Assembly: GCA_001001285.1 (NCBI GenBank)
Contig: LCKG01000001.1
Coordinates: 1-37,222 of the forward strand
DNA length: 37,222 nucleotides
Direction of reading: 5' to 3'
DNA from: Parcubacteria group bacterium GW2011_GWC1_45_13
Lineage (GTDB): Bacteria; Patescibacteriota; Minisyncoccia; UBA11713; 2-01-FULL-45-33
Positions 788 to 34,758 of this stretch are shown piece after piece. The notes beneath the pieces were generated by a model. That model was not told where the DNA came from and made no database searches. It saw only the letters and a program-made list of their open reading frames with translations. The position numbers and the translations under genes were made by a program. Positions within the stretch are counted from its first letter, which is position 1, and the number at the start of each line of letters is the position of its first letter.

Positions 788-3043
788 TTATGGATTCCGT
801 CCAGCTTTAATTTCTTCTATAAATTGCTCCCCTTGCTCTTTAAATTGCGGATTTATTTCTATGGCTTTTTGCAGTTCTTTTATGGCATTCTGCCTTTCCC
901 CCAACTGCATAAAAGTCGCGGCCAGATTCACGCGGTATTGGGCGTTTTGAGGCTCTTTTTCAATAAATAAAAGCCAGATGTCTCTTACTTTTTGAAAATT
1001 CCCCGCTCGGGCGTAGGCCGTAAGCAAATTTTGGTCTTTAATGATTTTCTTGCCGAAAGTTTTCATCAGGACTTCCTCGGCGTAGTCGCTTTGATTATTC
1101 AGTATGGCGACCAAAGCCATATTTTTAGCGGCTTCGCCGTAAGCCGGGGCGAAATCATAAGCCTCTTTTAAAACCTCAAAGGCTTTTTTATTGTCTCCTT
1201 TGCTTATCAAAATATCGGCCATCAAAAAAAAGATTTGTTGTTTTTTAGGAGATAATTCCTGCGCTTTATCCAAAATTTTAAGAGCGTCATCTATCTTTCC
1301 GCCCTTTAGATAAAGTGCCGAAAGAAAAAGGTATGACCGGGCATCTTTGGGGTTGTCAACAATCTGGCGCTCCATTTCTGAAATTGCTTTCTGTATGATT
1401 TTAATTTTAAGGTCGTTAGAAATATCAAAGGTAATAGCATTGCTGGCATAACTGCTAAATTGCTCTCTTGCCTCGCCATTGCCGAAAGTTTTGTATTCAA
1501 AAACTTTATCAAAATCACCCAAAATCACATCCACGTTTTGGGCCGAAACTGCCATATCTTTTAAAGCATTGAGGAGCGCTTCGCTTGCTAAAAGAGGTTT
1601 TATATTTACGAAGTACAAAGAAAAGATCACCGCGACAGACACAATGACTACAGCAATATATTGAAAAGGAGAAGCACTCTTTGACGAATCCATTTGCGGT
1701 AGAGATTTAATTTCCAAAAAATGGATAAACCCAAGTATTGCAAAAAACATGAAATAAGATGTGAGATTATCAAAAACAAACAAGTTATGAAAAAAATAGG
1801 CGGCGAAAAGCGCGGTAAAAATAGCTTTGGCCAACTTATCCTGCTGTTTCTTCCAAAGTGTATAGAGACTCAAAATAAAAACGCCCAAATAAGCCAGAAG
1901 TCCCAAAATACCGCCGTGAATCAGCCAATCAAAAATTACGTTATGCGCCCGATCAAACCACGGCTCCTGCGGCCAAAGTTGGGGCTTGTAATATTTATTG
2001 AACACCAAATTAAAATTTTCCGACCCCCAGCCCAAAATTGGATGTTCCTTAAATCCTTCCAAAGCCATGCCCCAAATAGTGAACCGCGATTTAATTGTTT
2101 GTTCTTTCAGCGAGATATCGGTAAAACGTTTGAGCACATAATTTTTGTTGATGAAATCCGTATTCTTTAAAACAAAGAAAGCCCCTAAAAGCGTTAAAAC
2201 GACGCCTATAACTCCTCCGGATAAAATTTTAGAACGCCGATCCCCCTCCAACCAAACCTTAAGCAAAGTGAAAAGCGCCGTGCCCCCCAAAAGACCCAAA
2301 ATCGCGCCGCGAGTCGCGGTAAAAAAAACAACCGGGATTTCCATAATGATAACGAAGGCCAGGATACTCCGTATCCAGATTCTTTGCTCCCCGCCTGCCT
2401 GCCCGACGGCAAGGCGGGCCAATTGGCGGGCAGGTTTAAATAAAAAATAAGCCGCGAGAAAAATATTAAAAATCAAAAAAATGGCCAGATAAGTAGAGTT
2501 TCCCAAAGTAGCGTCTAAACGATCGCTAGATTGATGAATCTCCAATTTACCCATGAATTGAAGATAAGAATAGGCGGTAATTATGAAACTCACCGCGATA
2601 GAAGAATAAAAAAATCTCCGCCAATCGGTTTCATTTTTAAACATGCAGATCAAGATTATAAAGTATGCCAAAAGATGAAGATGTGTCACTAGCCCCTCCA
2701 TTCTCTCGTAGTTTGACCAAAAACTGCGATATGGATTTTCGCCGAAAATCGTAGAAAGCGTTAAAACCCCCACTATAGCCAAAACTGCCCAAAAAATCGG
2801 CGAGGTGCGCGGGCGGTATTTTTTATCAAAAATGGCAGCGATTGCCCACAGAGCAAATAAAATTTCAACAACTATGCGGAAGAAAAAATTCTTGCCGGTA
2901 ATGAACGGGAAAAATAAGTCGCCCACTCCCGGCAGAAACATATTTGCAAAAAAATTGCCGGCCACAATTAGAGATAGTGCTGGCAAAATAAAAAGCCCGA
3001 TTTTGACTATTTTAACAATGATGTCTATTGTTTTCTGCGACAT
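788..3043 (-). CDS. O-antigen ligase (Wzy_C/WaaL/O-OTase-like) membrane protein with C-terminal TPR repeats
   Basis: 751 aa with many TM helices. Ligase motifs ATLGNSTYLA, TATRGA, WGMALEGFKEHPILGWGSENF and DRAHN. The C-terminus has TPR-like repeats (A..L.P, e.g. LQKAIEINP). Confidence 0.85.
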   Translation of the reverse strand: MSQKTIDIIVKIVKIGLFILPALSLIVAGNFFANMFLPGVGDLFFPFITGKNFFFRIVVEILFALWAIAAIFDKKYRPRTSPIFWAVLAIVGVLTLSTIFGENPYRSFWSNYERMEGLVTHLHLLAYFIILICMFKNETDWRRFFYSSIAVSFIITAYSYLQFMGKLEIHQSSDRLDATLGNSTYLAIFLIFNIFLAAYFLFKPARQLARLAVGQAGGEQRIWIRSILAFVIIMEIPVVFFTATRGAILGLLGGTALFTLLKVWLEGDRRSKILSGGVIGVVLTLLGAFFVLKNTDFINKNYVLKRFTDISLKEQTIKSRFTIWGMALEGFKEHPILGWGSENFNLVFNKYYKPQLWPQEPWFDRAHNVIFDWLIHGGILGLLAYLGVFILSLYTLWKKQQDKLAKAIFTALFAAYFFHNLFVFDNLTSYFMFFAILGFIHFLEIKSLPQMDSSKSASPFQYIAVVIVSVAVIFSLYFVNIKPLLASEALLNALKDMAVSAQNVDVILGDFDKVFEYKTFGNGEAREQFSSYASNAITFDISNDLKIKIIQKAISEMERQIVDNPKDARSYLFLSALYLKGGKIDDALKILDKAQELSPKKQQIFFLMADILISKGDNKKAFEVLKEAYDFAPAYGEAAKNMALVAILNNQSDYAEEVLMKTFGKKIIKDQNLLTAYARAGNFQKVRDIWLLFIEKEPQNAQYRVNLAATFMQLGERQNAIKELQKAIEINPQFKEQGEQFIEEIKAGRNP
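2390..2434. repeat. 45-nt in-frame compound palindromic element (24-nt outer plus 21-nt inner)
   Basis: Minus strand reads cctgcccgccaattgg[cccgccttgccgtcgggcagg]caggcggg and encodes PARQLARLAVGQAGG. It is a GC-rich island in an AT-rich gene. Confidence 0.8.
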
Positions 3044-3044
3044 G

Positions 3045-4592
3045 TTATTTATGATATAAGTCTTTCCTTAAATACACAAATTGGTGATATTCAAGATTGG
3101 GAATAGTGGAAAAATATTTTTTATATAAAATGTAATTTTTAAATCTCAAATCATTGGAAATTGATTCCGCTTCCGCGCCATATTCCAACTTGTCTTTATT
3201 TTCGCTTGTAAAAACTATTGCTCCCGGATTTTTTAAATAAAAATAATCAATTTTTTCTTTTGGAGATAAATTGCCGCGCGCCAATAACGGGTCATTTAGC
3301 GCCCCAAAATCTACGGTTTTAAGTTTTGAAAAATAAGGCATCGCCCCGGCGTCTGTGTAAACTACCAGCCATTCCGATGGCGGAATAATATTTTTTAATT
3401 CTCGGCCGATTAAATTATGTTCAGTTTCCTGCAAAGTAAGCTGAACGCGGGCAAATTGCATTTCGTCTTTCAATTTAACGACTTGAAATAAAATTTGGTA
3501 AACGCTCAAAACCAAAAAAAAACAGATTGTCAATTTGTACTTAAGAGTTTTTTTATTTTTGAATTCGTTTAGAGCTAAAAATCCCAAGCCGAATAAATAT
3601 CCTAAACCCAGCCAAAATGCCGGCATAAGCGGAGTATAAAAACGCGTGGAAAAATTGGTAAGCAGGTGCGTGCGGGCCAAAACGGCAACTAATAAAATCA
3701 TGAATATAATCGCGCCCCAAAAAGCATTAAATATTTGTGAATTTTTGAATTTTACCCACTCGCTTTTGATACGTTCCCACAGCCAATCGGCTTCAAAAGA
3801 CAAAAGTAACGCCGCGGCTAAAATAGGAATTGCAAAAAATGTTCTCAAAAATCTGGAGATATCAATCAAATTATCAAGGGATATGCCATTGCCTTCCTTG
3901 GCGTAAAAAGTATTTGGCAAAAGCGCGCCGTAGTAATTCGCCCTCCAAATAAAATAAATCAGCGCCGGGAAGAAATAAAAGAAAAGAAATTTCCAAAACC
4001 AAAATTTAAAATCTTCCCGCTCATTTTTAAATTTAGAAATACCGGTTGCGATTACAAAAGCCGTGGCTAGTGCCGCACCTTCCGGCCGCACCAAGTTCGC
4101 AAAAAGCAAAGATAAAAATAAAGGCGTTTCTTTCGCATCAAGCAAAAAATAAAAAGAAAGCAAAATAGCATTAATGAAAAGCGAGGTTTCCAATCCACTT
4201 AAAGCGTGCGTAAACAGTATGGGCGAAGTGGCATAGAGAAGCAAGATAATGCCCGAGATTAAATCTGGTAAATTTAATTTTCTTAAACAAAGAAAAAGCA
4301 AAAGCCATCCCGCAAAAAACATTAAAATGCCTGCAACATGACTTATGGTAATCGGTGAAAATCCGAGCTTTATAAATCCTGCCAAAACCACCGTCCACAA
4401 AACTCCGGTATATCCTTCAATCGGAGGTTCTCCAACATTCCAAGTAAGCACTCCTTGATTGGCGAAGTTTTCCGCGTATCGGAAAATAATATAAGCGTCG
4501 TCTATGGTCCATTTCGGGAAAATAATGAAAATCAGAGCGGAATAGATAAGACCGGAAGTTAAAAGAATTTTTGACAAAAATTTATAATTCAT
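3045..4592 (-). CDS. GT-C-fold membrane glycosyltransferase (arabinofuranosyl/mannosyltransferase-like)
   Basis: 515 aa, polytopic. IDDAYIIFRYAENF...WNVGEPPIEGYT follows the first TM. SGLET, VRPEG, PNTFYAK, DAGAMPYFS and VDFGALND motifs are present. Confidence 0.75.
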   Translation of the reverse strand: MNYKFLSKILLTSGLIYSALIFIIFPKWTIDDAYIIFRYAENFANQGVLTWNVGEPPIEGYTGVLWTVVLAGFIKLGFSPITISHVAGILMFFAGWLLLFLCLRKLNLPDLISGIILLLYATSPILFTHALSGLETSLFINAILLSFYFLLDAKETPLFLSLLFANLVRPEGAALATAFVIATGISKFKNEREDFKFWFWKFLFFYFFPALIYFIWRANYYGALLPNTFYAKEGNGISLDNLIDISRFLRTFFAIPILAAALLLSFEADWLWERIKSEWVKFKNSQIFNAFWGAIIFMILLVAVLARTHLLTNFSTRFYTPLMPAFWLGLGYLFGLGFLALNEFKNKKTLKYKLTICFFLVLSVYQILFQVVKLKDEMQFARVQLTLQETEHNLIGRELKNIIPPSEWLVVYTDAGAMPYFSKLKTVDFGALNDPLLARGNLSPKEKIDYFYLKNPGAIVFTSENKDKLEYGAEAESISNDLRFKNYILYKKYFSTIPNLEYHQFVYLRKDLYHK

Positions 4593-6030
4593 TTTTTTCT
4601 AAAGCTAAATTTATCGCGTTAATATGATTTTTAATGTTTTCCGTGACGTCTATAGGAGAGACATCCTGGCAATATTGCTCTCTGAAGCCGTTTATACTTA
4701 TCTTACCAAAACTATAGAGATAACTAATAATTTGCTGGCTATCCACAAAAAGCCCGGCTTTTATAACCTCAAGCGCGATACTGCAAGATCGGACGTCGTT
4801 TATTTTAAAAACACCCGGGCAATCGCGATACCAGGCATAACCGAACGCTAGAGAAGGTTTGTTTCTAAGCAACGCTTCCCAGCCAGCAGTGCCATTTACG
4901 GAAGCGACGCACTGGGATTTATCAATTAGCGTAAGACTGTCAGTTTCTAAAGGAATAATCTGCGTGTTAGGCAAATCTGCTATGGCTTTATAGTAACCAC
5001 GGTAGCGGTAGCTGAAATAATCCAGGCCTCTGGGTTTCCATTGCAAAGGATGTTCTTTTACGTAAATTAACCATCCGGCCGGCAAAGCCGCTGAAAGTAT
5101 CTCAATCATAAGCAATTGATCCACGAATACTCCGCCCAATGGGCTAGTGGTGCATTCAGGTTGGTATTGCAAAGGGACGTAAACAAATTTTTTGGAAAGA
5201 TCAGCAGGTTTTGCCAAACTTAAATACTCCGTTTTTTGGTTGGATCTGAATTTTCGCGGCAAGTAAGTGATTATTTTTGTAAAAACAGACAAATCTTTAA
5301 GTACGGTGACCGTAGTCCAAAAAGAACGCGCTTTTACTTTTAAAGCTTTGAGCCCGGAATACTTTTCTGAAAGCTCGACAATGTCTTGCGGCCGAATATT
5401 CGCTTTAAAACTAATCTGCGCATCATAATAGGCATGGATGTCCGAGGGTAAGTCTTCAACAGAAAAATGCTTGTTTTCGTTTTTTTTAAGTTCCGTTTTC
5501 AAAAAGCTGCTGCCCACGGCGAAATCGCTGATCACCAGACACCGATCGTTCACCCGCGTCAGTTCAAAAATAATCGTTTTTATCCCATAAAACTTGGCTA
5601 ATCCATAAATAACAAAGTCGTAGACGCTGTGAGGTACATTTGGGAATATAATCGCGTCCGGTTTTAATTTTTTAACTACTCCGTCCCAGTATCTTACATA
5701 ATCATAGTAGAGATGCTTACGTTCATTGACAGACATATTCTCAAAAGTTTTGCTCATCATTGTGAGCGTTTCCGATTCTGTACCTAAAAGTTTTTCCAAA
5801 AGTTCGGCGCTTGGCGGGTCAAACAAAAAATTTCCGACCTCCTTAGCCGGAATAGCTTTCAGGGCATCGTCGTGGCTATGGAAAATAGTCCCGGAAAAAT
5901 CTTGGCTGCTGATTTTTTCGCGTGAATGCGCGCCTACCCAATATACAATCTTATGCTTTTGTTTAAGCGCTTTTACAACTTCGGCAAGGCCGAATTCTTT
6001 TCCGATCCAGGTTATTAAAAATAAACGCAT
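4582..6030 (-). CDS. Capsule-polysaccharide-biosynthesis (KpsS/LipB-like) protein, putative ulosonic-acid transferase
   Basis: 482 aa. C-terminal VPLQYQPE, YVKEHP and NGTAGWEAL motifs. Confidence 0.7.
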   Translation of the reverse strand: MRLFLITWIGKEFGLAEVVKALKQKHKIVYWVGAHSREKISSQDFSGTIFHSHDDALKAIPAKEVGNFLFDPPSAELLEKLLGTESETLTMMSKTFENMSVNERKHLYYDYVRYWDGVVKKLKPDAIIFPNVPHSVYDFVIYGLAKFYGIKTIIFELTRVNDRCLVISDFAVGSSFLKTELKKNENKHFSVEDLPSDIHAYYDAQISFKANIRPQDIVELSEKYSGLKALKVKARSFWTTVTVLKDLSVFTKIITYLPRKFRSNQKTEYLSLAKPADLSKKFVYVPLQYQPECTTSPLGGVFVDQLLMIEILSAALPAGWLIYVKEHPLQWKPRGLDYFSYRYRGYYKAIADLPNTQIIPLETDSLTLIDKSQCVASVNGTAGWEALLRNKPSLAFGYAWYRDCPGVFKINDVRSCSIALEVIKAGLFVDSQQIISYLYSFGKISINGFREQYCQDVSPIDVTENIKNHINAINLALEKNEL

Positions 6031-6033
6031 AAT

Positions 6034-7824
6034 CTAATTTTTTAAATTATATACTCTAAAGAAATAAGAGTCTTTATTTTGGAGAAGCTCCGCGGGCACG
6101 CCCTCTTCAATAATTTTCCCTTCATCCAGTGCGATAAGCTTATCTGAAACTTTCACCGTGGATAAGCGGTGAGCTATGGCTAGAACTGTTATTTTTCCTT
6201 TTAGACTCTCGATTGATTTTTGTATAAAAATTTCCGATTCGTTATCAAGGGCGCTGGTGGCTTCATCCAAAACCAGAATCTGGGGATGTCTCGCGAGGAC
6301 TCTTGCTAAAATAATTCTTTGCTTTTGCCCGCCCGAAAGTAAAATCCCCCTCTCGCCCACGACAGTTGAGAATTTTATGGGAAGCGAATTTATAAAATCG
6401 TAAATATTGGCCTGGCGCGCGGCCTCTATCATATCTTTTTCAGTAATCGCGTCGCTATAAAATTTTATGTTGTTTTCAATCGTATCGTTCAATAAAAAAA
6501 TCTCTTGCGAAACATAACCGATATTTTTTCTCCAGTCTTCCATACGAATATCTGCTATATTTCTTCCATCAATTAAAATCTCGCCATCCTGCGGCAAGTA
6601 AAGCCGCAAAATCAAATCCACTATTGTGGTTTTTCCAGCTCCGGAAGGACCTATCAAACCAACCATTCCGCCTTTATCTATAGAAAAAGAAACTCCATTT
6701 AAAACATTTTCTTCTCTATTTTTATAAGAAAAACCAACATTTCTGAATTCCAACTTTTTTTGAAAATGGAAGCTTGCTGTGCCCAAATCACGCTCTTCGT
6801 GTTTTTTTGCTTTATTTTTGTATTCCAATACGCTAGCAAGGTAAGGCACTTGCGCGTTAATGGTATGCAAATTGGATTGAGCTTGCTGAATATAGGCAAA
6901 AACTTTATTTATAGCGTAAACTATCACGGCGAACGCGGCGAAATTAAAAGCAGTCATTTTATAAAAAAATATAAATACGGCAATAACAAAAATTAAGCCG
7001 ACCGGCTGGAGCAAGGCAGTAGTTGCGTTTCTTAACGCTGCCACGCGCAAATTTAAATTCTTTATTGCCTCAAAATATTTATTGCTTCGCTCTGTTATTT
7101 TTTCTTCCACAAAAGAAGCTTTTACTGCTTTCATTCCCATTATATTTTCGTTTACGTAATGCGCCAATTCTTTGTAAAGCCTGCCCATTTCCGCTGAAAC
7201 AGCTATATTTCTGCGGAAAAGCGGTTTTAAAGAAAAAAGCACTATTCCTCCAAAAGCCATTGTAAAAAGTGCCACAATCCAGGAAATATTCACAACCAAA
7301 AGACCGTAAGCAATTAAATTGGCCAGAACTATTATAGAAGCGCTGATGTAAGTCAAAAGTTTAGAGCTCTGGTCTACGTCGTTGGTCAAAGATTGATCTA
7401 AATATCCTACTTTCTCCGCCGAAAGATATGGCCAATCGGCTTTTAATATGGCTGAAAAAAGTTCATTTCTGATTTTAGTTTCAAAAGAAGCGGTTGCGCG
7501 CGTAGCTACGTAGTTAGCCCAGAAAAGAATGGCCGCCTTAATTATAAAAAGCAAAATTATAAAGACGAGCAAAGAAACCAGAGTATATTTTAAATGCGCG
7601 TATAAAAAAAACTTTTCAATGGCTCGGGAAATAAAATCCACGCCGGGTGCCTGGTCTTTATTTAGAAAAGAGAATAAAGGAATAATAGCGTTAATTCCAA
7701 TGCTTTCCAAAAATCCACTAACAAAAGAGAGGATTGTTAGTAAGATAATCTCCGACTTATATTGGCCGAATGCTTTTTTAAATAAGTTGAGTAGATTTAA
7801 TTTTTCGCTAAATTTGGTGAGCAT
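6034..7824 (-). CDS. ABC transporter, fused permease-ATPase (MsbA/PglK-like glycan flippase)
   Basis: 596 aa. N-terminal TM domain, Walker A GPSGAGKT, signature LSGGQKQR, Walker B LVLDEATSALD, H-loop IAHRLST. Confidence 0.9.
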   Translation of the reverse strand: MLTKFSEKLNLLNLFKKAFGQYKSEIILLTILSFVSGFLESIGINAIIPLFSFLNKDQAPGVDFISRAIEKFFLYAHLKYTLVSLLVFIILLFIIKAAILFWANYVATRATASFETKIRNELFSAILKADWPYLSAEKVGYLDQSLTNDVDQSSKLLTYISASIIVLANLIAYGLLVVNISWIVALFTMAFGGIVLFSLKPLFRRNIAVSAEMGRLYKELAHYVNENIMGMKAVKASFVEEKITERSNKYFEAIKNLNLRVAALRNATTALLQPVGLIFVIAVFIFFYKMTAFNFAAFAVIVYAINKVFAYIQQAQSNLHTINAQVPYLASVLEYKNKAKKHEERDLGTASFHFQKKLEFRNVGFSYKNREENVLNGVSFSIDKGGMVGLIGPSGAGKTTIVDLILRLYLPQDGEILIDGRNIADIRMEDWRKNIGYVSQEIFLLNDTIENNIKFYSDAITEKDMIEAARQANIYDFINSLPIKFSTVVGERGILLSGGQKQRIILARVLARHPQILVLDEATSALDNESEIFIQKSIESLKGKITVLAIAHRLSTVKVSDKLIALDEGKIIEEGVPAELLQNKDSYFFRVYNLKN

Positions 7825-8845: not shown

Positions 8846-10772
8846 ATTTTTGTATAACTTCCGCTAATGTTTTGGAAATATATTCTATGTCCGCTTTTTT
8901 AAGACCTATATAAAACGGCAGGGCCACTGCACTATTACTAACCGCTTCGCATACCGGAAAGTCACCCGGTTTGAACCCGAAAGATTTTTTATAAAAACTC
9001 AAAAGATGAATTGAAGGCAAATATGGTTTCGTGCTTATGCCAATTTCATTAAGATACTCAATAACTTTATCCCGATTCACTTTTTTACCCGCCTTGCCGT
9101 CAGGAATGTTTTTTATGCGAACAACGTAAACAAACCAGGTGTGAGTATTATACTTGTGCACTTGCGGAACTTGAACTAAATCGCTATACGGCGCTAAAAA
9201 TTTATTATACCAACCTGCTATTTTTCTTTCTTTGAGCAGCCAGTCCAACTTTTCCAATTGCGCTAAGCCAACCGCGGCGCTCATTTCGTCCATCCTGTAA
9301 TTATAGCCGAGATATTTATGGTCGAGCCACTGCATATTTTCGGACCGTCCCTGATTGCGCAAACTAGCGCATAGCCTATAAATATTTTTGCTGTTTGTCA
9401 CAATTACCCCGCCCTCACCGGTAGTCATCTGCTTATTGGGATAAAAAGCAAAAACAGCCGATTCGCCGAAAGTACCCGCTTTTCGGCCCTTGTAAGTTGC
9501 TCCGAGACTTTCGCAAGCGTCTTCTATAACTTTCAAATTATATTTTTGAGCAATTTGTAAAATAGGATGCATATCAGCCGGCTGGCCGAAAATATGCACT
9601 ATTAAAATTGCTTTAGTTTTTTTTGTAATAGCGCTTTCAATTTTATTTGGATCAATGTTGTAAGTTATAGGATCAATATCCACAAAAACCGGCTTCGCGG
9701 CGACATACAAAATTACATTGGCGGAAGCCACAAAAGAAAATGGGGTAGTAATAACTTCATCCCCCGAGCCAATTTTGGCCGCCAAGAGCGCCAAATGTAA
9801 GCCAGCGGTTCCGCTGGAAACCCCGCAAGCATACTTAGTACCTGCAAACTCAGCGAATTTTTTTTCAAACGCTTTCAATTTGTGGCCCATGCTTAAAATC
9901 CCAGAATTCAAAACTTCCATAACATATTTTTTTTCTCTGGCTGCAATATACGGATGGGCGCTGGCGTAATGTTTGTAGTATCTTAAATAATTTTTATAAG
10001 CTATCTGTAAGCCATCGTGCAAACTATAATTAAATTTATAATTTGTGAGTTTAAGCATTTTTTTATTGTCTCCTATGCTGAACTTTTTTTCAGGCGTGGG
10101 GCTGCCAACTTTAAAATATACCTCTTTGCCGGTAATATTTTCTACCATTCCAATCAAATCCCGCACAGTGTATCCCTTGCCGGTAGAAACATTAACCACT
10201 TCGCGCTGGTTTTTTTGTTTTAAAAAAATAAAAAATTCTATTAGTCCGGCCGCATCTTCAACAAATACATAGTCCCTAACTATTTTATTACCATCTCCAC
10301 GGATAATAAAATCGTGTCCGTGTATAAGCGATAAAAAAATATTGTTAAGAATGCCGAGATTTTTTATATCTCCATAAACATTGGCCATTCTTATAACCGT
10401 TAATGAGCATCCAATTGTTTTCGCGAAACGAGAGATTTTTAATTCTTCCTTATATTTGCTCCGTTCATATTCAGTGGCCGGCATAGGTACAACTTTTTCA
10501 TTCTGCGGGCGAGGGGAATCCGGATAAATAAGCAGAGAGGAAAGATAAATAATTTTCTTTAATTTTTTAGACGCTGTGATTTTCGGGATTAAAACGTCTC
10601 TAACCGCCGTCCCCGGCTGAGTCAACACCACAATTACTTCGGCGTCTAAATAATTGCCTTCATTGATATTTGAGCTCCCCACCGACGTAATCTTACAATC
10701 TTTCCTCGCAGAAAGTTTTTTAGCAAGATGTTCTCCTATAAAACCGGTCCCGCCGAATAATAATATATTCAT
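8829..10772 (-). CDS. Fusion of an NAD-dependent epimerase/dehydratase (N-terminal) and a DegT/DnrJ/EryC1/StrS aminotransferase (C-terminal)
   Basis: 647 aa single ORF. N-half: GGTGFIG, YERSK, NVYG, RDYVFVED. C-half: SSGTAGLHLA, IEDACESLG, FAFYPNKQMTTGEGG (PLP lysine), GYNYRMDE. Confidence 0.85.
   Translation of the reverse strand: MNILLFGGTGFIGEHLAKKLSARKDCKITSVGSSNINEGNYLDAEVIVVLTQPGTAVRDVLIPKITASKKLKKIIYLSSLLIYPDSPRPQNEKVVPMPATEYERSKYKEELKISRFAKTIGCSLTVIRMANVYGDIKNLGILNNIFLSLIHGHDFIIRGDGNKIVRDYVFVEDAAGLIEFFIFLKQKNQREVVNVSTGKGYTVRDLIGMVENITGKEVYFKVGSPTPEKKFSIGDNKKMLKLTNYKFNYSLHDGLQIAYKNYLRYYKHYASAHPYIAAREKKYVMEVLNSGILSMGHKLKAFEKKFAEFAGTKYACGVSSGTAGLHLALLAAKIGSGDEVITTPFSFVASANVILYVAAKPVFVDIDPITYNIDPNKIESAITKKTKAILIVHIFGQPADMHPILQIAQKYNLKVIEDACESLGATYKGRKAGTFGESAVFAFYPNKQMTTGEGGVIVTNSKNIYRLCASLRNQGRSENMQWLDHKYLGYNYRMDEMSAAVGLAQLEKLDWLLKERKIAGWYNKFLAPYSDLVQVPQVHKYNTHTWFVYVVRIKNIPDGKAGKKVNRDKVIEYLNEIGISTKPYLPSIHLLSFYKKSFGFKPGDFPVCEAVSNSAVALPFYIGLKKADIEYISKTLAEVIQKYAKRV
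9088..9108. repeat. 21-nt in-frame palindromic element (degenerate copy)
   Basis: cccgccttgccgtcaggaatg matches the inner 21-mer at 2398-2418 (opposite strand) at 16 of the first 17 positions. It adds 7 codons to the DegT domain (KN-IPDGKAG-KKV). Confidence 0.7.
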
Positions 10773-10784
10773 ATAAACAAAAAT

Positions 10785-12512: not shown

Positions 12513-12516
12513 ATTG

Positions 12517-12924: not shown

Positions 12925-12954
12925 ATAAATTAAACGTATTTAGCCTTATTTTAG

Positions 12955-14007: not shown

Positions 14008-14020
14008 TGTAATAATCTTT

Positions 14021-14049
14021 AAACTAACAAAATATAAAATCAGTTGCAA
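14021..14049 (-). promoter_or_regulatory. Putative sigma70 promoter for neuB
   Basis: TTGCAA (14049-14044), 17-nt spacer ending TGt, then TAGTTT (14026-14021). Confidence 0.45.
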
Positions 14050-14050
14050 T

Positions 14051-14076
14051 AAAAAAGAGAGCTATTTCTAACTCTC
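14051..14076 (-). terminator. Intrinsic terminator after the small DMT gene
   Basis: Minus strand GAGAGTTA-GAAA-TAGCTCTC followed by TTTTTT: an 8-bp stem with one G-U pair and a GAAA tetraloop. Confidence 0.75.
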
Positions 14077-14103
14077 CGCCCCCTTTCCTTTTGCAATATA
14101 GTT

Positions 14104-14565: not shown

Positions 14566-14605
14566 ACTGAACTCCTTTCTCAATGAACAATTTTACTACA
14601 AAAAA

Positions 14606-14634: not shown

Positions 14635-14650
14635 ATTCGTATGCAAATGG

Positions 14651-17014: not shown

Positions 17015-18033
17015 ATTTCTCCCCCGCCCGATTCAAGTTTATAAAGAGTTTTTAAATTTCGCAGGTCTTCCTCAAAAGTATAAGGATATGGCGCGCGGCC
17101 GTAAATCGCTTCTAAAAACGCTTTGATTTCGTCGTTGTACATCTCTTCTGCGTTAATATAGCCGGTATGAGGGTTTCCTTTCGGCACATCTATTGTTTCA
17201 GTAATTTTGCTTTTCGCGTCGTATATTTTAATAATATGGTCCAGCCATTCCCATTCTAAAACCCCTTCGCTGCCTAAAATTCTGGTTGTGCGAAAAGGCT
17301 TGCGGGAAATAACATCAATCATAATGTTGCCGACAACTTTATTCGCGTATTGCAGATTAGCCGCAATTAAATCGTCCGCCTCCATATCCAAATCCGAAAT
17401 CTTGCCGATATAACCAGAAATTTTCCCAACTTGTGAGCCGGTGAGCCAATTTAACCAAATCAATTCATAGGGCAGCATTTCGCGGCAAGCACCGGTCTCT
17501 TTTTTTGAAAAATAAACGTTGCGGTAGTCCTCCCAGGGATGCCAATCCGGAAGATATTGCCCCATATGGTGCTGGAACGACAAAATCCTGCCGATTTTGC
17601 CCGAATCAATTACCTCTTTCATCATCTTAATCGGCAAGAAAAATCTGTAAGTGCATGAGGGAGCCATCACAATATTTAAATTTTCCCCGCCAGAGGCGGG
17701 TCTGCCTTCGGCGGAAAAAACATTTTCATATCCATCGTCCGAAGTAGTCACTTCAACAAAAAAATGTTTTTTCTTGCCAATCGCCCAGCGGATAAAATCC
17801 CCATGCTTATTCGGAGGCGTGGAAATAATCACCGAGTCAAAAGCTTCATCAGAAATTTTATTTAAACCATCAATAGTTTTTATGCCGTATTCTTCCTCCG
17901 CTTCTTTCCGCCTTTCCGGCGACAAATCAAAACCAATGATATTTTTTTCGCCATTGGCAAATAAATTGCGGATTCTTCGCTTGCCCATGGAGCCTAGCCC
18001 TATCTGCAAAAATGCCGGTTTATTTTCTGGCAT
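17011..18033 (-). CDS. Gfo/Idh/MocA oxidoreductase
   Basis: 340 aa. IGLGSMGKRR, IISTPPNKH and GQYLPDWHPWEDYR motifs. Confidence 0.88.
   Translation of the reverse strand: MPENKPAFLQIGLGSMGKRRIRNLFANGEKNIIGFDLSPERRKEAEEEYGIKTIDGLNKISDEAFDSVIISTPPNKHGDFIRWAIGKKKHFFVEVTTSDDGYENVFSAEGRPASGGENLNIVMAPSCTYRFFLPIKMMKEVIDSGKIGRILSFQHHMGQYLPDWHPWEDYRNVYFSKKETGACREMLPYELIWLNWLTGSQVGKISGYIGKISDLDMEADDLIAANLQYANKVVGNIMIDVISRKPFRTTRILGSEGVLEWEWLDHIIKIYDAKSKITETIDVPKGNPHTGYINAEEMYNDEIKAFLEAIYGRAPYPYTFEEDLRNLKTLYKLESGGGEI
17686..17715. repeat. 30-nt in-frame tandem pair of 15-nt hairpins
   Basis: cccgcc-aga-ggcggg followed by tctgcc-ttc-ggcgga. Encodes SAEGRPASGG and is flanked by T and A runs. Confidence 0.8.
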
Positions 18034-29492: not shown

Positions 29493-29536
29493 ACTAATGT
29501 AACTTTGAATCGGCTTCATTTGTTTTAAAAATAACG

Positions 29537-31039
29537 ATGAAAATCTGCTTTTTACTGCAAAGACGATTTGCGTATATCGGCCACGCTCTGGCCTTAATTT
29601 TAAAAGAGAAATACGGCGTAACCGACTTTTGCGGATATGTTTCTTTGCGTTCCGGTTTGGAATTTCTAAAATCCCAGAAAGACATCCAATATACAGGACT
29701 CCTGCTTGATGAAAACGTGCACAATCAATATAAAGATGAGCCGTTGGACCTAGCTTATTTAAAAGAGCTTGAAAAAAATTACGGACTTCCAAATCTCTGG
29801 CGGTATATAGAAATGGATAGAACCATCAGGCACGGTCAGCTGGTAAGAGAATATCCCCATGATGCCTCGCCCTATTCCCATGAAGAAATGATGCGGCTTA
29901 TGCAAGTGAAAATAAAAGCCATATTAAAATTTCTAAAAGAAGAAAAGCCCGATGTAATAATTTTTTCGGTTATTGCCGATTTAAGCGCCTTATTTCTTTA
30001 TCAGGCCGCAAAAAAATTTGGCATTAAAATATTGCTGATAAAGCCGTCGAGAATCCAAAGCCTTCACACCCTTACCGAAGATTATCGTTATTATAGTCAC
30101 GTTGATAAAACTTTTAATGAGCTCCAAAACGGAGAAATGGCTTTGCCGGAACACCAACTGCTGGCAGAAAATTTCCTGAAAAATTTCCGCGCCAAACCCT
30201 CACCATATTCATACCGCGATACGCCAGCCGCAAAGCCGACCACGAGAAAAAAACAGTTTGCGTTCTTGCGGCCGCGCCAAGCCATTGTTTCTTTGAAATG
30301 GACAGCTCAAATATTTACCGATTATTTCCGCAATAAATATAGGCAAGATCCTTATACCGTAAAGCCATGGCACTATATAATTGATACAATCAAAAGAAAG
30401 GCGCGCGTGTTTAGGGGTTTTGATGATTTGTACGACGAACCAAATTTTAACGAATATTATGTATTCTTCCCACTGCAAGCAGAACCGGAAATGGACATAA
30501 CGCTGCCTTCGCAATTCTACACGGACCAAAACTGGCTGATACAGCAAGTTGCCAGGGCTCTGCCGATATACTTTAAAATTTACGTTAAAGAGCATCCGGC
30601 AATGTATGGATATCGCCCAAGAAATTTTTACAAAAAGCTTAAAAAAATCCCGAACGTTAAGTTAATCAGACCAACAGAAACAGGATTCAATCTCATCCAA
30701 AACGCCAAAATTATCACTACGCTTGTCGGAACATCCGGCTGGGAGGGAATGCTTTTAAAAAAACCGGTAATAACTTTCGGGGATGTTTTTTATAACAAAC
30801 TTCCCATGGCAAAAAAATGTGATAATATCAACGATTTGCCGTGGCTCATTAAAGAGCAGCTTGAGAATTTTATTTACGACGAAAAATCTCTCGTGAATTA
30901 TATTACCGCTATTTACAAAGAAAGCGCGGATGTAGATTTAATAAAAATTTGGGAGATGGAAGGCGGCAGCCAAACAGAAAAACACAAGGAGCAGCTTTCG
31001 GCTTTGGCAAATCTTATTGCGTCAAAGCTCAACCCTTGA
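29537..31039 (+). CDS. Capsule-polysaccharide-biosynthesis (KpsS/LipB-like) protein, copy 2
   Basis: 500 aa. FFPLQAEPE, YVKEHP and GTSGWEGMLLKKPVITFG motifs. Confidence 0.72.
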   Translation: MKICFLLQRRFAYIGHALALILKEKYGVTDFCGYVSLRSGLEFLKSQKDIQYTGLLLDENVHNQYKDEPLDLAYLKELEKNYGLPNLWRYIEMDRTIRHGQLVREYPHDASPYSHEEMMRLMQVKIKAILKFLKEEKPDVIIFSVIADLSALFLYQAAKKFGIKILLIKPSRIQSLHTLTEDYRYYSHVDKTFNELQNGEMALPEHQLLAENFLKNFRAKPSPYSYRDTPAAKPTTRKKQFAFLRPRQAIVSLKWTAQIFTDYFRNKYRQDPYTVKPWHYIIDTIKRKARVFRGFDDLYDEPNFNEYYVFFPLQAEPEMDITLPSQFYTDQNWLIQQVARALPIYFKIYVKEHPAMYGYRPRNFYKKLKKIPNVKLIRPTETGFNLIQNAKIITTLVGTSGWEGMLLKKPVITFGDVFYNKLPMAKKCDNINDLPWLIKEQLENFIYDEKSLVNYITAIYKESADVDLIKIWEMEGGSQTEKHKEQLSALANLIASKLNP

Positions 31040-31805: not shown

Positions 31806-32968
31806 CAATATTTAATTTGTTTCATTGTAGCATATAGCTGCGGGGTCCAGTTGGTATACCGCAGTTCGGAAATTCTTTTATAAGCGTTTTCTGACAGCTG
31901 TTCCAATAAATTTTTATCATCGGATAATTTTTGTATTGCCAAAGCAAGATTTTGCGGATCGTCAAATTTAAAAACGACAGCCGCGGAACCGGCCTGCCAA
32001 GCCGTCGCGCTGCCAGCCGAGACTATGCTCGGCAGCCCCCGCGACATAGCCTCAATTAGGCCCACAGAAGTAAGTTCGCGCCTCCACCTTGGCACAATGA
32101 AAATATCAGAACTATCTAAGATTTCAAAAAGTTGAGCGCGCGACAGCCAGCCAGAAAAAGTAATGCGCTTCTCTAAACCAAATTCTTTAGACATTTTTTT
32201 TAATCGTGCCTCGTCCGCCCCGCTCCCCGCTATAGTAAGATGATACTCATCTTGGCTAGAAAGCAGAGAAAAAGCGTAAATCAATAAATCAAACCCCTTG
32301 GTAGGTATGAGCCGGCCAACAGCGATAAGTTGTAGCGGTTTCTGATTGAATGTTCTTTTAGCGCCATGCCGGAAAATTTCACCGCACTCCGGGCTTATCA
32401 GCTGATATTTAGCTTCCAAGCCAAATTTATTGTACTCCATCTGCAATATCGGCGAAGTAAAAGTCGTTATCTCAATAGCATTCGCCAATAACATGCCAAT
32501 TGATTTTTCTGCAATAAGTCTTGCGCATTTTTTCAATTTTTTCAAAAAAGTATTTGCAACGTCTTCATCCGCGAGGCCAAACTCATAGACGGGAACGTCT
32601 CGAGAAAATGATCCTAACTCACGATTGAAAAAAGCCACAATTGGAACCCGCCCGCCCAAACGTTTATACAAGCCGGCGCCGTAAAGAAAAACGTGGCCGT
32701 CAACATGGAAAAAATCGGCTTCCTTTTCATATTTTTTTAAAATTTTATAAACAGCCCAAGAAATTTCTACAAGTCCGGTCTTGATTATATTTTCCTCAAT
32801 AATCTGATAAGGCTGGGGCCCCGGAATGAGGTTGGATTTAGAAAAAGCCGTGACACATTTAACGGAGTTGCCCAATGCCAAAAAAGATCTTGCTTTTCTG
32901 TCTATATCGAAAACCGACCCTCCGGACGTCTGGAAATTTAATTTAGAAGTAATAAAAATTATTTTCAT
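31805..32968 (-). CDS. Glycosyltransferase family 4
   Basis: 387 aa. VGRLIPTKG, IAGSG, FSGW and E-x7-E (ELTSVGLIEAM) motifs. Confidence 0.88.
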   Translation of the reverse strand: MKIIFITSKLNFQTSGGSVFDIDRKARSFLALGNSVKCVTAFSKSNLIPGPQPYQIIEENIIKTGLVEISWAVYKILKKYEKEADFFHVDGHVFLYGAGLYKRLGGRVPIVAFFNRELGSFSRDVPVYEFGLADEDVANTFLKKLKKCARLIAEKSIGMLLANAIEITTFTSPILQMEYNKFGLEAKYQLISPECGEIFRHGAKRTFNQKPLQLIAVGRLIPTKGFDLLIYAFSLLSSQDEYHLTIAGSGADEARLKKMSKEFGLEKRITFSGWLSRAQLFEILDSSDIFIVPRWRRELTSVGLIEAMSRGLPSIVSAGSATAWQAGSAAVVFKFDDPQNLALAIQKLSDDKNLLEQLSENAYKRISELRYTNWTPQLYATMKQIKY

Positions 32969-34758
32969 TTTGCAATTTTATACAAATAGATATTACCTGC
33001 CTGTCCGGTAGGCGGGTTGGAAACTATAACCTCTCGAAGGCCGCCGAGAACTGATATGTCCCACTCCGGATAAAGATTCTTATCGTGAACAATGTAATCT
33101 ATCCCGTAGGATTTCAACAAATCTTCAATGCCATTTTTTCTTTTTTTAATAATTGAATATTCCAAATCGAGCTCATAAAGCATCTGCTCTCTTTTTTTTA
33201 AAATTTCCGGGTCGTTATTAATCAATTTTTTATAATAATCAGATATGGTAAGCCCGGATGAAAGACCCTCTAACGATAAGTAAATATCCCGATAAGCAGA
33301 TTCTTCTTGATTTAACTTGTACCGCGGATTTCCTACTTCCCTGACATAATCTGACAAACTGTCTCTTTTTTGTTTGTTTATATATGTATAAACGTATAAA
33401 GCGTCTTTGATTCTTTTAATGGGCACGTTTACCGCACTGAAGGGGTTGCTCCAAAAGAGGTCATGGGGCGTGTAAACTGTGAATAGATAACTGTTATCAC
33501 GTTCGGCCGTAAAAATAACTCCTCCATCATTATTTTTATTTAAAATATCTATAAGCTGCCGGTAATTTTGCCGATATATTTTTAGATCATATCCGGTTAA
33601 CGTTGCCTTATATTGTCCGATAGCCGTATTAATATAAACTGCGATTAAAAGAAAGATCAATATAGCTTTTTTAAATGAGAGCATATATAGGCTTACTATA
33701 ATCGCCATCGGCACCAAAAAAACGTCGCGGTAATGCGCAGGCTGCAAAATTTTTCCTGTGATTATTTGCTGGTTCATCACGGCCCAGCCGGTTAAAATCA
33801 AAGCTAAAATCAGTGGCCAATTTCTCTTTTTTTCTATCTCGCCCTCGCTGTCTTTTGGCCGGGCATAAATAAACGCGGAAAATAAAAGCAACGGAATCAA
33901 ATTCACCATATTAAACATAGGCGTTCTGCCGTAAGATGCTCCAAAGAAATAAAACAGCTGTTTGTTTAATTCTGAATGAAGAGAAATATAAATGCTGTAA
34001 AGATTATATGAGCCAATTATAAGCCCAAAAAAAGTAATAAACAGGATTTTCTTAAAGCGCTCTTTATCACCCCTTATAAAATACAAAAAAAATAAAATTA
34101 AGTTGAAAGCTAAAATATACGACCACGCATACAGATAAATATAAAACAAAAGTCCGAAAGAAAACGCGGTTAAAATCAAATATTTCCATCTCCAAACTTC
34201 CTCGCGCAAACTTTTTATCAGTAAATTCAAATACGCAAAAGTGACTAAAGAAGGAATGTAGGGAGAAAAAGCTTGGCCGTAACCATTAATAGAAAACCAG
34301 AGATGCGGTTGAAGCAATCCGTATCCGCCAACCACCATTAACGATGTTGTTATGGACAATAATTTATCGCTTGAAAGCTCAAGAGCCAAAAAATATATCA
34401 GCAAAACCAAAACAAAAACGCCCAAAAAATTATAAAACGCGTAAATGGTTGTGATATCCGCCTTGTCCGCCAAGCCCAATAAGCGCAGTGGGGTTACGAG
34501 CATGTATTCGCTGTAATTAAAATACGGATCCTGGCCATCTTTTCCTTCTCTGAACGTATAATTGCCAAGGCCGTGCCCCTCCAAGACCTCTTTTCCGCGA
34601 GATAAATACCCCAATTCGTCGCGGCCATAATTGGCTATGTTTATTCCGCGATATCGGTTCCCGGCCATAAAAGGAAAAATTATCAGTGGCGAAATGATTA
34701 GCGTCGCCATAATTAATCCATGGGCAATAATAGCTTTGTGATTGCGCAGCTGCAGCAC
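32965..34758 (-). CDS. Polytopic membrane protein, GT-C-like (paralog A)
   Basis: 597 aa, GTG start. DE motif after the first TM (GRDELGYL), FYIYLYAWS, NQQIITG and YTPHDLFW motifs. Confidence 0.65.
   Translation of the reverse strand: MLQLRNHKAIIAHGLIMATLIISPLIIFPFMAGNRYRGINIANYGRDELGYLSRGKEVLEGHGLGNYTFREGKDGQDPYFNYSEYMLVTPLRLLGLADKADITTIYAFYNFLGVFVLVLLIYFLALELSSDKLLSITTSLMVVGGYGLLQPHLWFSINGYGQAFSPYIPSLVTFAYLNLLIKSLREEVWRWKYLILTAFSFGLLFYIYLYAWSYILAFNLILFFLYFIRGDKERFKKILFITFFGLIIGSYNLYSIYISLHSELNKQLFYFFGASYGRTPMFNMVNLIPLLLFSAFIYARPKDSEGEIEKKRNWPLILALILTGWAVMNQQIITGKILQPAHYRDVFLVPMAIIVSLYMLSFKKAILIFLLIAVYINTAIGQYKATLTGYDLKIYRQNYRQLIDILNKNNDGGVIFTAERDNSYLFTVYTPHDLFWSNPFSAVNVPIKRIKDALYVYTYINKQKRDSLSDYVREVGNPRYKLNQEESAYRDIYLSLEGLSSGLTISDYYKKLINNDPEILKKREQMLYELDLEYSIIKKRKNGIEDLLKSYGIDYIVHDKNLYPEWDISVLGGLREVIVSNPPTGQAGNIYLYKIAK
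32996..33016. repeat. 21-nt in-frame palindromic element
   Basis: cctgcct-gtccggt-aggcggg adds PPTGQAG, which is absent from the aligned C-terminus of paralog B. Confidence 0.85.

What the first reader, a model, noticed from the sequence alone, without database searches (positions are those of the whole stretch)
2390..33016. Ultra-short palindromic elements inserted in frame into four unrelated genes
Seen: four GC-rich hairpin islands occur in AT-rich coding sequence at 2390-2434 (45 nt), 9088-9108 (21 nt), 17686-17715 (30 nt) and 32996-33016 (21 nt). All lengths are multiples of 3, none introduces a stop, and all use CC(C/T)GCC...GGC(G/A)GG-type arms. Three 21-mers align without gaps: cccgccttgccgtcgggcagg (2418-2398), cccgccttgccgtcaggaatg (9088-9108) and cccgcctaccggacaggcagg (33016-32996). 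They lie in both orientations relative to their host genes and give different peptides, so the DNA is conserved rather than the protein. Established: in-frame palindromic insertions are known as Rickettsia palindromic elements, but those are typically much longer, and REP elements are normally intergenic. Inference: this is a minimal non-autonomous mobile element that adds 5-15 aa to protein loops. No transposase or RAYT is in the window and no clear target duplication is seen. I cannot tell from here whether this family has been described.
Basis: partly seen in the sequence, partly recalled or inferred. Interest (0 to 1): 0.85.

Follow-up and report, generated by a model that had tools for sequence, protein, structure and literature searches.

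The report
Mini hairpin elements inserted inside genes
A tiny groundwater bacterium carries dozens of 16 to 30 base GC-rich hairpin DNA elements inserted in frame into unrelated and even essential genes, adding short loops to the proteins; this is a miniature form of a known kind of selfish DNA.

Summary
All four islands are clean in-frame insertions that orthologs lack. They belong to at least three genome-wide families, not one:
- a 21-mer, CCTGCCTTGCCGGCAGGCAGG and variants: sites 1 (inner part), 2 and 4;
- a 24-nt element: the outer part of site 1;
- a 30-nt palindrome read as SAKGGSASGG: site 3.

The 21-mer has 47 loci in this 756-kb genome, against 0-1 in simulations. It occurs in 18 of 19 sister genomes of the family and in 62 of 401 genomes of the phylum; a reversed control gave 0. 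Insertion sites are mostly lineage-specific. Hosts include DnaK, GyrB, TopA, PheS and NusA.

Copies insert as exactly 21 nt with no target duplication. They sit in disordered loops. Reading frames that would give Cys, Trp or Arg-rich peptides are rare.

Best reading: REP-like, non-autonomous hairpin elements, filtered by selection. They are probably moved by Y1 (RAYT-like) transposases. The genome has six of these, but none is flanked by these hairpins, so the driver is unproven.

In-frame intragenic REPs and RPEs are known. This is a new, ultra-short, Patescibacteria-wide variant.

The parts
2390..2434 (-). Site 1. A composite 45-nt in-frame insert in the Wzy_C/TPR gene (788-3043). It encodes PARQLARLAVGQAGG.
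   Evidence: Exactly 15 residues are absent from both same-genus orthologs (82-84% identity) and from further family orthologs. G003 carries only PARQLAGG at this site.
2398..2418 (-). Inner 21-mer of site 1, a member of the 21-mer family (3 mismatches to the consensus). It is nested inside the outer element.
   Evidence: census. The codon alignment and the G003 ortholog, which lacks just these 7 residues.
2419..2434 (-). Coding-5' part of the outer 24-nt element of site 1. Its other part is 2390-2397. Joined, the two read PARQLAGG.
   Evidence: Sequence and translation. The G003 ortholog has the uninterrupted 8-residue form.
9088..9108 (-). Site 2. A decayed 21-mer (4 mismatches, one arm eroded) in the DegT domain of the epimerase-DegT fusion gene (8829-10772). 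It encodes IPDGKAG.
   Evidence: The 7 residues are absent from the G009 and G014 orthologs (63-70% identity over the 167-residue query; 74-77% over the domain). They are present as LPDGKAG in G003. In the AF2 model the only internal segment with pLDDT below 50 is residues 292-297 of the domain, which is the insert, in coil.
17686..17715 (-). Site 3. A member of the 30-nt palindrome family (5 mismatches) in the GFO/IDH/MocA gene (17011-18033). It encodes SAEGRPASGG.
   Evidence: 6-8 residue gap in 5 of 5 family orthologs. 0 of 79 global homologs carry it. It is an AF2 low-confidence coil. In four metagenome runs, 2-9 contigs per run match only this stretch and diverge at 17686 and 17717.
32996..33016 (-). 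Site 4. A 21-mer of the CCTGCCCGTCCGGCAGGCGGG subfamily, near the 3' end of a 597-aa gene with no Pfam family (32965-34758). It encodes PPTGQAG.
   Evidence: Of the 15 paralogs and orthologs whose alignment spans the site, 11 lack exactly these 7 residues and 4 have other gaps; a 16th alignment stops short of it. Frame table.

Best explanation
The islands are copies of several families of ultra-short (16-30 nt), GC-rich, hairpin-forming, non-autonomous mobile DNA elements. They are common in this Patescibacteria (CPR) lineage and behave like REPs that live inside genes.

Shown:
- New copies appear as exact insertions. For the main family the insert is 21 nt, with no target duplication and the flanks untouched.
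- Insertion sites differ between sister genomes.
- The element sequence itself stays the same across a phylum.

Inferred:
- A copy is excised or copied as a single-stranded hairpin and pasted elsewhere by a trans-acting HUH/Y1 (RAYT-like) transposase. The genome has six of these. Each is bracketed by its own hairpin, and two of those hairpin families also sit in frame in other genes.

Shown for the filter:
- The genome is about 93% coding, so most landings are in genes.
- Surviving copies have a length that is a multiple of three, have no stop in any of the six frames, lie in disordered surface loops, and are read in frames giving Pro/Gly/Ala-rich peptides (LPAGKAG, PPAGG, SAKGGSASGG).
- Frames giving Cys, Trp or Arg-rich peptides are rare, or carry a mutated Cys codon.
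For: Family and excess:
- 47 loci against 0-1 in simulations; regex 50 against 9.2.
- 12-mers of three hairpin families occur 11-16 times against 0.03-0.07 expected.

Insertions:
- Of 42 copies inside ORFs, 31 have a spanning G001 ortholog, and 18 of those show a net gap of exactly 7 aa.
- 34 have a spanning G003 ortholog, and 16 of those show exactly 7 aa.
- Codon alignments show 21 nt added with identical flanks and no duplication, for example in TopA, CTP synthase and DnaK.

Turnover:
- G001 has 13 copies; 10 lie at sites with an exact 7-aa gap in G000.
- G003 has 25 copies, mostly at sites empty in both other genomes.
- About 3 sites are shared.

Conservation:
- The 21-mer at up to 2 mismatches occurs in 18 of 19 family genomes and 8 of 21 other families of the class.
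- It occurs in 62 of 401 phylum genomes; the reversed control gave 0 of 401.

Unbiased test of insertions:
- 66 clean insertions of 4 aa or more separate G000 from G001. Their median GC is 0.67, against 0.44 in controls.
- 26 of the 66 carry both motif arms, against 0.2% of controls. The modal length is 7 aa.

Frames:
- LPAGKAG 27 of 40, with Cys codons replaced in all 3 PA[C]RQGR-frame copies and in 3 more of the 5 copies in the other Cys frames.
- PPAGG 42 of 66; SAKGGSA[FS]GG 25 of 26.

Loops:
- In 2 of 2 AF2 models the insert is the internal low-pLDDT coil.

Y1 link:
- Six PF01797 genes in G000, and hits in 19 of 20 family genomes.
- Each Y1 gene is flanked by its own hairpin on at least one side (both sides for 4 of 6). 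All six carry an own-type hairpin inside the CDS: an exact or 1-mismatch copy in 4, a related form in C8, an unrelated one in C22.
- Their 27-nt hairpins also sit in frame in other ORFs.
- Y1 count and 21-mer count correlate across the 20 family genomes (rho 0.62).
- Y1 hits occur in 48 of 61 21-mer-positive against 132 of 339 negative phylum genomes. All 8 genomes with 6 or more copies have Y1.
Against: - No Y1 gene is flanked by the GC-rich hairpins: 0 of 6 in G000, 0 of 80 relatives, and 0 of 20 in the five richest genomes.
- 13 of 61 21-mer-positive phylum genomes show no PF01797 hit at E<=1e-5. They include complete genomes with 4-5 copies.
- No conserved target motif.
- No replication-strand bias in the closed genome G003: 8:6 and 6:6. 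IS200/IS605-type elements show both.
- The 16-nt family adds a net 12 nt with changed flanking codons, which a simple paste does not explain.
- No empty alleles were seen in contigs of four metagenome runs. Contigs hide rare variants.
- Clean empty sites for the Y1-linked 27-mers are few: 1 of 11.
Confidence: 0.55

Rival explanations
1. Transposase-independent templated insertion. A fixed short nucleic acid is patched into DNA breaks or replication gaps and sealed. The template could be a hairpin oligonucleotide, or a product of the resident reverse transcriptase or a primase-polymerase. This would give a constant insert at arbitrary sites.
For: - No cognate transposase flanks the GC-rich families.
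- No target motif and no strand bias.
- The 16-nt family replaces about 4 nt of the target, for a net +12.
- One reverse transcriptase is present in G000 and conserved in G001 and G003.
- Some 21-mer-positive genomes have no Y1 hit.
Against: - The only RT sits in a typical diversity-generating retroelement with a TR/VR pair (85% over 120 nt). Nothing links it to the hairpins.
- No such pathway is known in bacteria (recalled).
- Y1-linked hairpins in the same genome show the same in-frame behaviour.
- Y1 presence is enriched among carriers.
Confidence: 0.2
2. The hairpins are host-selected functional sites. Candidates are a protein-binding or DNA-uptake signal, or an RNA pause or stability element. 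Their spread and conservation would then reflect benefit to the cell rather than selfish mobility.
For: - The sequence is identical across a phylum.
- Copies also sit in 23S-5S spacers and at terminator-like intergenic positions.
- Frame bias in coding DNA is also known for uptake sequences (recalled).
Against: - Positions are not conserved between sister genomes.
- Copies decay freely; the window copies no longer fold.
- Density is about 1 per 16 kb, far below uptake sequences (recalled).
- Copies arise as clean insertions, not by substitution.
- The distribution across the phylum is patchy: 62 of 401 genomes.
Confidence: 0.12
3. Selection acts on the peptide. A useful Pro/Gly-rich linker is repeatedly acquired, and the DNA palindrome is a by-product of Pro, Ala and Gly codons.
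For: - Strong frame bias: 27 of 40, 42 of 66 and 25 of 26.
- P-P-A-G-G codons are intrinsically near-palindromic.
Against: - The same DNA is read in 3-5 different frames giving unrelated peptides.
- Third codon positions are fixed across unrelated genes.
- Copies occur in non-coding spacers.
Confidence: 0.03
4. Chance composition or an assembly artefact.
For: Short GC-rich strings; the genome is a draft assembled from a metagenome.
Against: - Simulations and codon shuffles.
- The reversed-pattern control gave 0 in 401 genomes.
- The same sites are present in contigs of independent runs; for example one contig spans 7634-9149 with no difference.
Confidence: 0.01

Closest known systems
REP / REPIN elements with RAYT (TnpA-REP) Y1 transposases
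   Same: - Short GC-rich imperfect palindromes in many dispersed copies.
- Several families per genome.
- Family sequence conserved over long times.
- No target duplication.
- Y1/HUH genes flanked by hairpins exist in the same genome.
   Different: - 42 of 47 copies are inside ORFs rather than extragenic.
- No GTAG or CGTC end tag.
- No Y1 gene is flanked by these particular hairpins.
- The Y1 genes are multi-copy (six) and score below the NCBIfam REP_Tyr_transpos cut-off: 29-39 bits against 80.
Intragenic in-frame REPs (Opitutus terrae, R. conorii RPE-4/RPE-6 and others; PMC3733652, passages read)
   Same: Short REP-type palindromes inserted in frame in known proteins, including DNA-metabolism genes. 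The paper interprets them as tolerated insertions.
   Different: - Those carry GTAG or CGTC tags.
- More than half are dimers encoding 20-30 aa.
- They are a minority of their families.
- Here single 16-30-nt units encoding 4-10 aa are the majority state, in another phylum.
Rickettsia palindromic elements (RPE-1 and relatives; as cited in PMC3733652, otherwise recalled)
   Same: Selfish palindromic DNA inserted in frame in essential genes of a reduced genome. The extra peptide lies on the protein surface.
   Different: RPE-1 is about 100-150 bp (recalled), against 16-30 nt here. The taxon is unrelated and there is no sequence similarity.
IS200/IS605-type single-strand 'peel and paste' elements and their hairpin-bearing derivatives
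   Same: Hairpin-dependent; no target duplication; Y1 enzyme family present.
   Different: - No specific 4-5-nt target.
- No lagging-strand bias.
- No TnpB.
- The element is a single hairpin rather than two different ends.
GC clusters and hairpin elements of mitochondrial genomes (yeast recalled; the placozoan paper PMC7813641 seen only in the listing)
   Same: GC-rich palindromes spreading in a more AT-rich compact genome, sometimes inside coding sequence.
   Different: Organellar, with an unknown and probably different mechanism. Not compared here by sequence.
DNA uptake sequences (USS/DUS; recalled)
   Same: A short conserved motif in coding DNA with a reading-frame preference. Often in inverted pairs.
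   Different: Those arise by substitution at about 1 per kb. Here clean insertions occur at about 1 per 16 kb.

Membership tests
REP/RAYT system | Short (about 20-40 nt) imperfect palindrome in many dispersed copies | tested here: met
   The 21-mer has 47 loci in 756 kb against 0-1 expected. The 16-mer has 24 hits and the 30-mer 7.
REP/RAYT system | GTAG or CGTC tetranucleotide at one end of the palindrome (PMC3733652) | tested here: not met
   The flank and position table of 44 copies shows the ends CCTGCC and GGCAGG and no conserved flank. CGTC occurs only inside the loop of one subfamily.
REP/RAYT system | A Y1 (RAYT) gene bracketed by copies of the same palindrome | tested here: not met
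   For the GC-rich families: 0 of 6, 0 of 80 and 0 of 20. The feature is met for other hairpin families of the same genome.
REP/RAYT system | Predominantly extragenic location | tested here: not met
   42 of 47 loci lie inside greedy ORFs. One of these is in fact an rRNA spacer.
Intragenic REP / RPE-type selfish DNA in coding genes | In-frame insertion absent from orthologs, with the host gene kept intact | tested here: met
   Hosts include DnaK, GyrB, TopA, PheS, NusA, L9 and CTP synthase.
Intragenic REP / RPE-type selfish DNA in coding genes | The inserted codons are translated into the mature protein | not testable with these tools
   Only indirect support: length a multiple of three, stop-free, frame bias, avoidance of Cys. 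No proteomic data were available.
Rickettsia palindromic elements (RPE-1) | Element length of about 100-150 bp (recalled) | tested here: not met
   Inserts are 12-45 nt.
IS200/IS605-type single-strand transposition | No target-site duplication | tested here: met
   Codon alignments at 13 21-mer sites show intact flanks.
IS200/IS605-type single-strand transposition | Insertion next to a specific 4-5-nt target | tested here: not met
   No conserved flank. Position -1 is G in 20 of 44 copies; position +1 is C in 21 and T in 16 of 44.
IS200/IS605-type single-strand transposition | Orientation bias relative to replication (lagging-strand template) | tested here: inconclusive
   In the closed genome G003 the split was 8 lagging to 6 leading, and 6 to 6. 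Numbers are small and ori/ter are approximate, from GC skew.
DNA uptake sequences | High density and origin by point substitution (recalled) | tested here: not met
   About 1 per 16 kb. Copies are clean 21-nt insertions.

The most novel reading that the evidence does not exclude
Patescibacteria harbour a distinct class of 'codon-compatible' mini-hairpin elements of 16-30 nt, stop-free in all six frames. On this reading:
- they transpose without any linked transposase gene;
- they are served in trans by a large, diversifying family of about 220-aa Y1 enzymes, or by an unknown break-patching activity;
- each Y1 gene carries its own recognition hairpin on both sides and, in frame, inside itself;
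- the elements are the dominant source of protein length change, even in essential genes, across a whole phylum of ultra-small bacteria.
Probability: 0.3. Interest if true: 0.8.

Novelty: new variant of a known kind. Interest (0 to 1): 0.65.

Why it matters
- It shows how selfish DNA survives in a genome with almost no non-coding space: by being short, a multiple of three in length, stop-free in every frame, and read as a harmless loop.
- In this lineage such elements account for a large share of in-frame insertions between congeneric genomes. 26 of 66 carry both motif arms and 44 of 66 are GC-rich. They therefore shape protein evolution and can mislead alignments, gene trees and structure predictions for CPR proteins.
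- The exact 21-nt, scar-free insertion at many sites points to a compact natural system for writing short peptide-coding tags into genes. That would be worth finding.
- The companion Y1 genes, each with its own hairpin, offer a natural series for studying how HUH enzymes read DNA hairpins.

Tried and rejected
- Population polymorphism: contigs of four metagenome runs laid on window 1-20000 showed no 21-nt or 30-nt indel at sites 1-3. Contigs drop rare variants, so this says little about mobility today.
- Master copy in the rRNA operon: G000 has 21-mer-like (20 and 17 nt) and 16-mer copies in two 23S-5S spacers. The G003 spacer has none and G001 has no rRNA operon in its assembly. Idea dropped.
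- tRNA origin: no GC-family copy lies within 60 nt of any of the 45 tRNA/tmRNA genes.
- Known RNA families: none in the window.
- TnpB partner: none found.
- RT as driver: the only RT belongs to a diversity-generating retroelement. It is kept only as part of a rival.
- Large serine recombinases (5 paralogs): no link to the hairpins.
- Replication-strand bias: none seen.
- Target motif: none seen.
Net insert length from ortholog alignments was used instead.
- False positives removed by eye: C3:29279 (a conserved ALPDVRDGL motif present in all orthologs), C10:67 and C10:2166 (contig-end repeat), and C3:88307 for the 16-mer.
- Literature: six searches found no paper that joins Patescibacteria, Parcubacteria or CPR with REP, RAYT, REPIN or in-frame palindromes. 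Only open-access papers and bioRxiv are searched. Supplements were not seen; Additional file 3 of PMC3733652 lists intragenic REPs and may bear on this.
- The counts joining searches were made by eye from the two tables.

Full report
**Setting**

The window is the first 37,222 bases of contig C1 of a 755,799-base, 28-contig genome. Its GC content is about 0.44. A greedy ORF model covers 93% of the genome.

The closest relatives of its Y1 genes are metagenome-assembled genomes titled Candidatus Giovannonibacteria and other Patescibacteria. Groundwater and soil metagenomes hold the window.

The window is a run of cell-envelope sugar genes. The four host genes are:
- a Wzy_C/TPR protein;
- an epimerase-DegT fusion;
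- a GFO/IDH/MocA oxidoreductase;
- a 597-aa protein with no Pfam family.

Yes. They are in frame and stop-free.

In 100 codon-shuffled genomes the means were 9.2 and 0.02.

A 21-mer consensus, CCTGCCTTGCCGGCAGGCAGG, has 47 loci at up to 5 mismatches, against 0-1 in simulations. Five copies are perfect.

K-mer statistics and a hairpin scan show further palindrome families:
- 12-mers of three families occur 11-16 times against 0.03-0.07 expected;
- there are 186 GC-rich perfect hairpins against 59-71 in simulations.

**Several families, not one**

- Sites 1 (inner part), 2 and 4 are 21-mers. Site 4 belongs to the subfamily CCTGCCCGTCCGGCAGGCGGG.
- Site 3 belongs to a 30-nt palindrome family read as SAKGGSA[S/F]GG, with 7 loci in G000.
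- Site 1 is nested. A G003 ortholog has only the outer 24-nt element (PARQLAGG). The window gene has a 21-mer inserted into that element.
- A 16-nt perfect palindrome, TCCGCCAGCTGGCGGA, has 24 hits, mostly read as PPAGG.

The window's own copies are eroded and no longer fold better than shuffles. The consensus folds as a 7-bp stem with a 7-nt loop.

**They are insertions**

Site by site:
- Site 1: the 15 residues are missing from both same-genus orthologs and from other family orthologs.
- Site 2: the 7 residues are missing from G009 and G014 but present in G003.
- Site 3: a 6-8 residue gap in 5 of 5 orthologs. 0 of 79 homologs drawn from a library of 1.84 billion proteins carry it.
- Site 4: 11 of the 15 spanning paralogs and orthologs lack exactly the 7 residues.

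Genome-wide, I compared G000 with whole G001 (same genus) and with the closed G003 genome (fetched):
- 18 of 31 G001 alignments and 16 of 34 G003 alignments show a net gap of exactly 7 residues.
- Codon alignments show 21 nt added with identical flanks and no duplication.

The reverse comparison gives the same picture:
- G001 has 13 copies; 10 lie at sites with an exact 7-aa gap in G000.
- G003 has 25 copies, mostly at sites empty in both other genomes.
- About three sites are shared.

An unbiased list of all 66 clean insertions of 4 residues or more in G000 relative to G001 gives:
- median GC 0.67, against 0.44 for controls;
- 26 of 66 with both motif arms, against 0.2% of controls;
- 7 residues as the commonest length.

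**Spread**

The 21-mer, at up to 2 mismatches, is present in:
- 18 of 19 other genomes of the family and 8 of 21 other families of the class;
- 62 of 401 sampled genomes of the phylum, with up to 28 copies in one genome. The reversed-pattern control gave 0 throughout.

In four metagenome runs, several unrelated contigs match only the 30-nt element of site 3 and diverge at its two ends.

**Selection filter**

All consensus forms are stop-free in six frames. Pooled over three genomes, the frames used are:

| Family | n | Frames read |
|---|---|---|
| 21-mer | 40 | LPAGKAG 27; PALPAGR-type 5 |
| 21-mer subfamily | 25 | RLPDGQ 10; PARPAGG 7; PPAGRAG 4; the Cys frame PACRTGR 0 |
| 16-mer | 66 | PPAGG 42; RQLAD 12; SASWR 12 |
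| 30-mer | 26 | SAKGGSA[FS]GG 25 |

In the 21-mer's Cys-coding frames, the Cys codon is replaced in all 3 PA[C]RQGR copies and in 3 more of the other 5 copies. One DNA read in several frames shows that the DNA is the unit. The skew shows that the peptide is under selection.

Hosts of well-preserved copies (0-4 mismatches) include TopA, CTP synthase, ribosomal protein L9 (two copies), DnaK, GyrB, PheS, NusA, a beta-CASP RNase and an HtrA-like protease.

In both AF2 models the insert is the only internal low-confidence segment. It is coil between regular secondary-structure elements:
- mean pLDDT 93.8, insert at residues 105-114;
- mean pLDDT 86.7, insert at residues 291-297.

**Mechanism**

The genome has six PF01797 (Y1_Tnp) genes of about 215-225 aa. 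These are the second largest paralog family. They score above the Pfam cut-off but below the NCBIfam RAYT cut-off.

Each is bracketed by its own hairpin, and most carry a copy in frame inside the gene.

Among 80 relatives across Patescibacteria, using strict perfect-stem criteria:
- 35 have related hairpins on both sides;
- 34 have a hairpin on one side only, or unrelated hairpins;
- 11 have none;
- 29 have an internal related copy.

Two of these hairpin families (27 nt) also sit in frame in other ORFs. Only 1 of 11 has a clean empty site in my comparisons.

Y1 genes are enriched among 21-mer carriers: 48 of 61 against 132 of 339 (odds ratio 5.8; kin are not independent).

Points against the Y1 link:
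- No Y1 gene is flanked by the GC-rich hairpins: 0 of 6, 0 of 80 and 0 of 20.
- 13 carriers have no Y1 hit.
- There is no target motif.
- There is no strand bias.

I therefore hold 'mobile hairpin element filtered by selection' with high confidence, and 'moved by Y1 enzymes' as the most likely but unproven step.

**Comparison with what is known**

REPs inserted in frame in genes are described for Opitutus terrae, Rickettsia conorii (RPE-4 and RPE-6) and others (PMC3733652, passages read). Longer RPEs are cited there.

The present elements fail three REP criteria: the end tag, a flanking RAYT, and extragenic location. They are shorter, mostly intragenic, and phylum-wide in Patescibacteria. My six searches found no description of such elements in that phylum.

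**Verdict**

This is a real, well-supported phenomenon. It is a new, ultra-short variant of intragenic REP/RPE-type selfish DNA, and its driver is unknown.

Noticed in passing
G000 C17:792-1454, C8:18094-18765, C4:30853-31497, C4:71955-72608, C22:8984-9619, C12:3007-3690 (loci L158-L163): Six RAYT-like Y1 genes, each flanked by its own hairpin of about 21-27 nt with a near-perfect stem. Four share a constant foot (ACTTGG...CCAAGT) with a variable 5-bp top. Most carry a copy of the hairpin in frame inside their own coding sequence. The same layout recurs in many of 80 Patescibacteria relatives (35 with related hairpins on both sides, 29 with an internal copy).
   Followed up: partly
G000 C2:37058-39716: A diversity-generating retroelement. 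The RT gene is at 38721-39716, a template repeat at 38234-38352, and a variable repeat at 37808-37927 at the 3' end of the upstream gene (85% identity over 120 nt). RT homologs are present in G001 (2) and G003 (1).
   Followed up: partly
G000 C4:73432, C7:4534, C14:5214, C3:33804 and others: The 16-nt palindrome TCCGCCAGCTGGCGGA adds a net 12 nt (4 residues) relative to orthologs. The codon on each side also differs, as if about 4 nt of the target were replaced. Unexplained.
   Followed up: partly
G000 C2:56077-57600 (about residue 47); window 2390-2434: Nested insertions. A 24-nt hairpin (AGCCCCGACGGCACCGTCGGGGCT) sits inside a 16-mer-type element, just as the 21-mer sits inside the 24-nt element at window site 1.
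   Followed up: no
G000 C2:85050 (TopA) against G003; G001 C13:8896 against G003:97744: The same protein loop is hit by different elements in different genomes. TopA has a 21-mer in G000 and a 30-mer-type SAKGGSAS peptide in G003. At another site, LPAGKAR in G001 corresponds to a nested pair in G003, and G000 is empty. This suggests few permissive sites or a local target preference.
   Followed up: no
G000 C11:13755-14376 and C26:2000-3140: Two different 23S-5S ends in one assembly. Both spacers hold hairpin copies whose length is not a multiple of three (20 and 17 nt). C11 also has a second partial 5S-like 5' end at about 14051-14075. This could be two operons, a strain mix or contamination (3% by the tool's figure).
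   Followed up: partly
G000 C3:95019-96311, about residue 118: A 14-residue in-frame insertion (SPKPSLGHALNSVW) made by a perfect 44-nt palindrome (22-bp stem, no loop). It is absent from the G001 ortholog. It belongs to a further, AT-richer hairpin family.
   Followed up: no
G000 C3:70127-73402 (about residue 608), C3:42347-42473, C3:71951-71989: Another hairpin family, C[CT]CCGAC-N5-6-GTCGG[AG]G. It often occurs as adjacent doublets and is also found as an in-frame insertion (PRRKVGAPTKAS).
   Followed up: no
window 32965-36646 and C1:39839-41575: Three paralogous genes of about 580-630 aa with no Pfam family stand side by side in the sugar-gene cluster. Only one carries the 21-mer.
   Followed up: no
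window 28731-31039: Two long ORFs on opposite strands overlap: 28731-29792 on the minus strand and 29537-31039 on the plus strand. The greedy gene model kept the longer one; the true gene call here is uncertain.
   Followed up: no
G000 C28:1-1800 and four other loci: Five paralogous large serine recombinases (Resolvase + Recombinase + Zn ribbon). The C28 copy lies between inverted copies of two GC-rich hairpins (3-25/1760-1782 and 57-74/1711-1728).
   Followed up: partly
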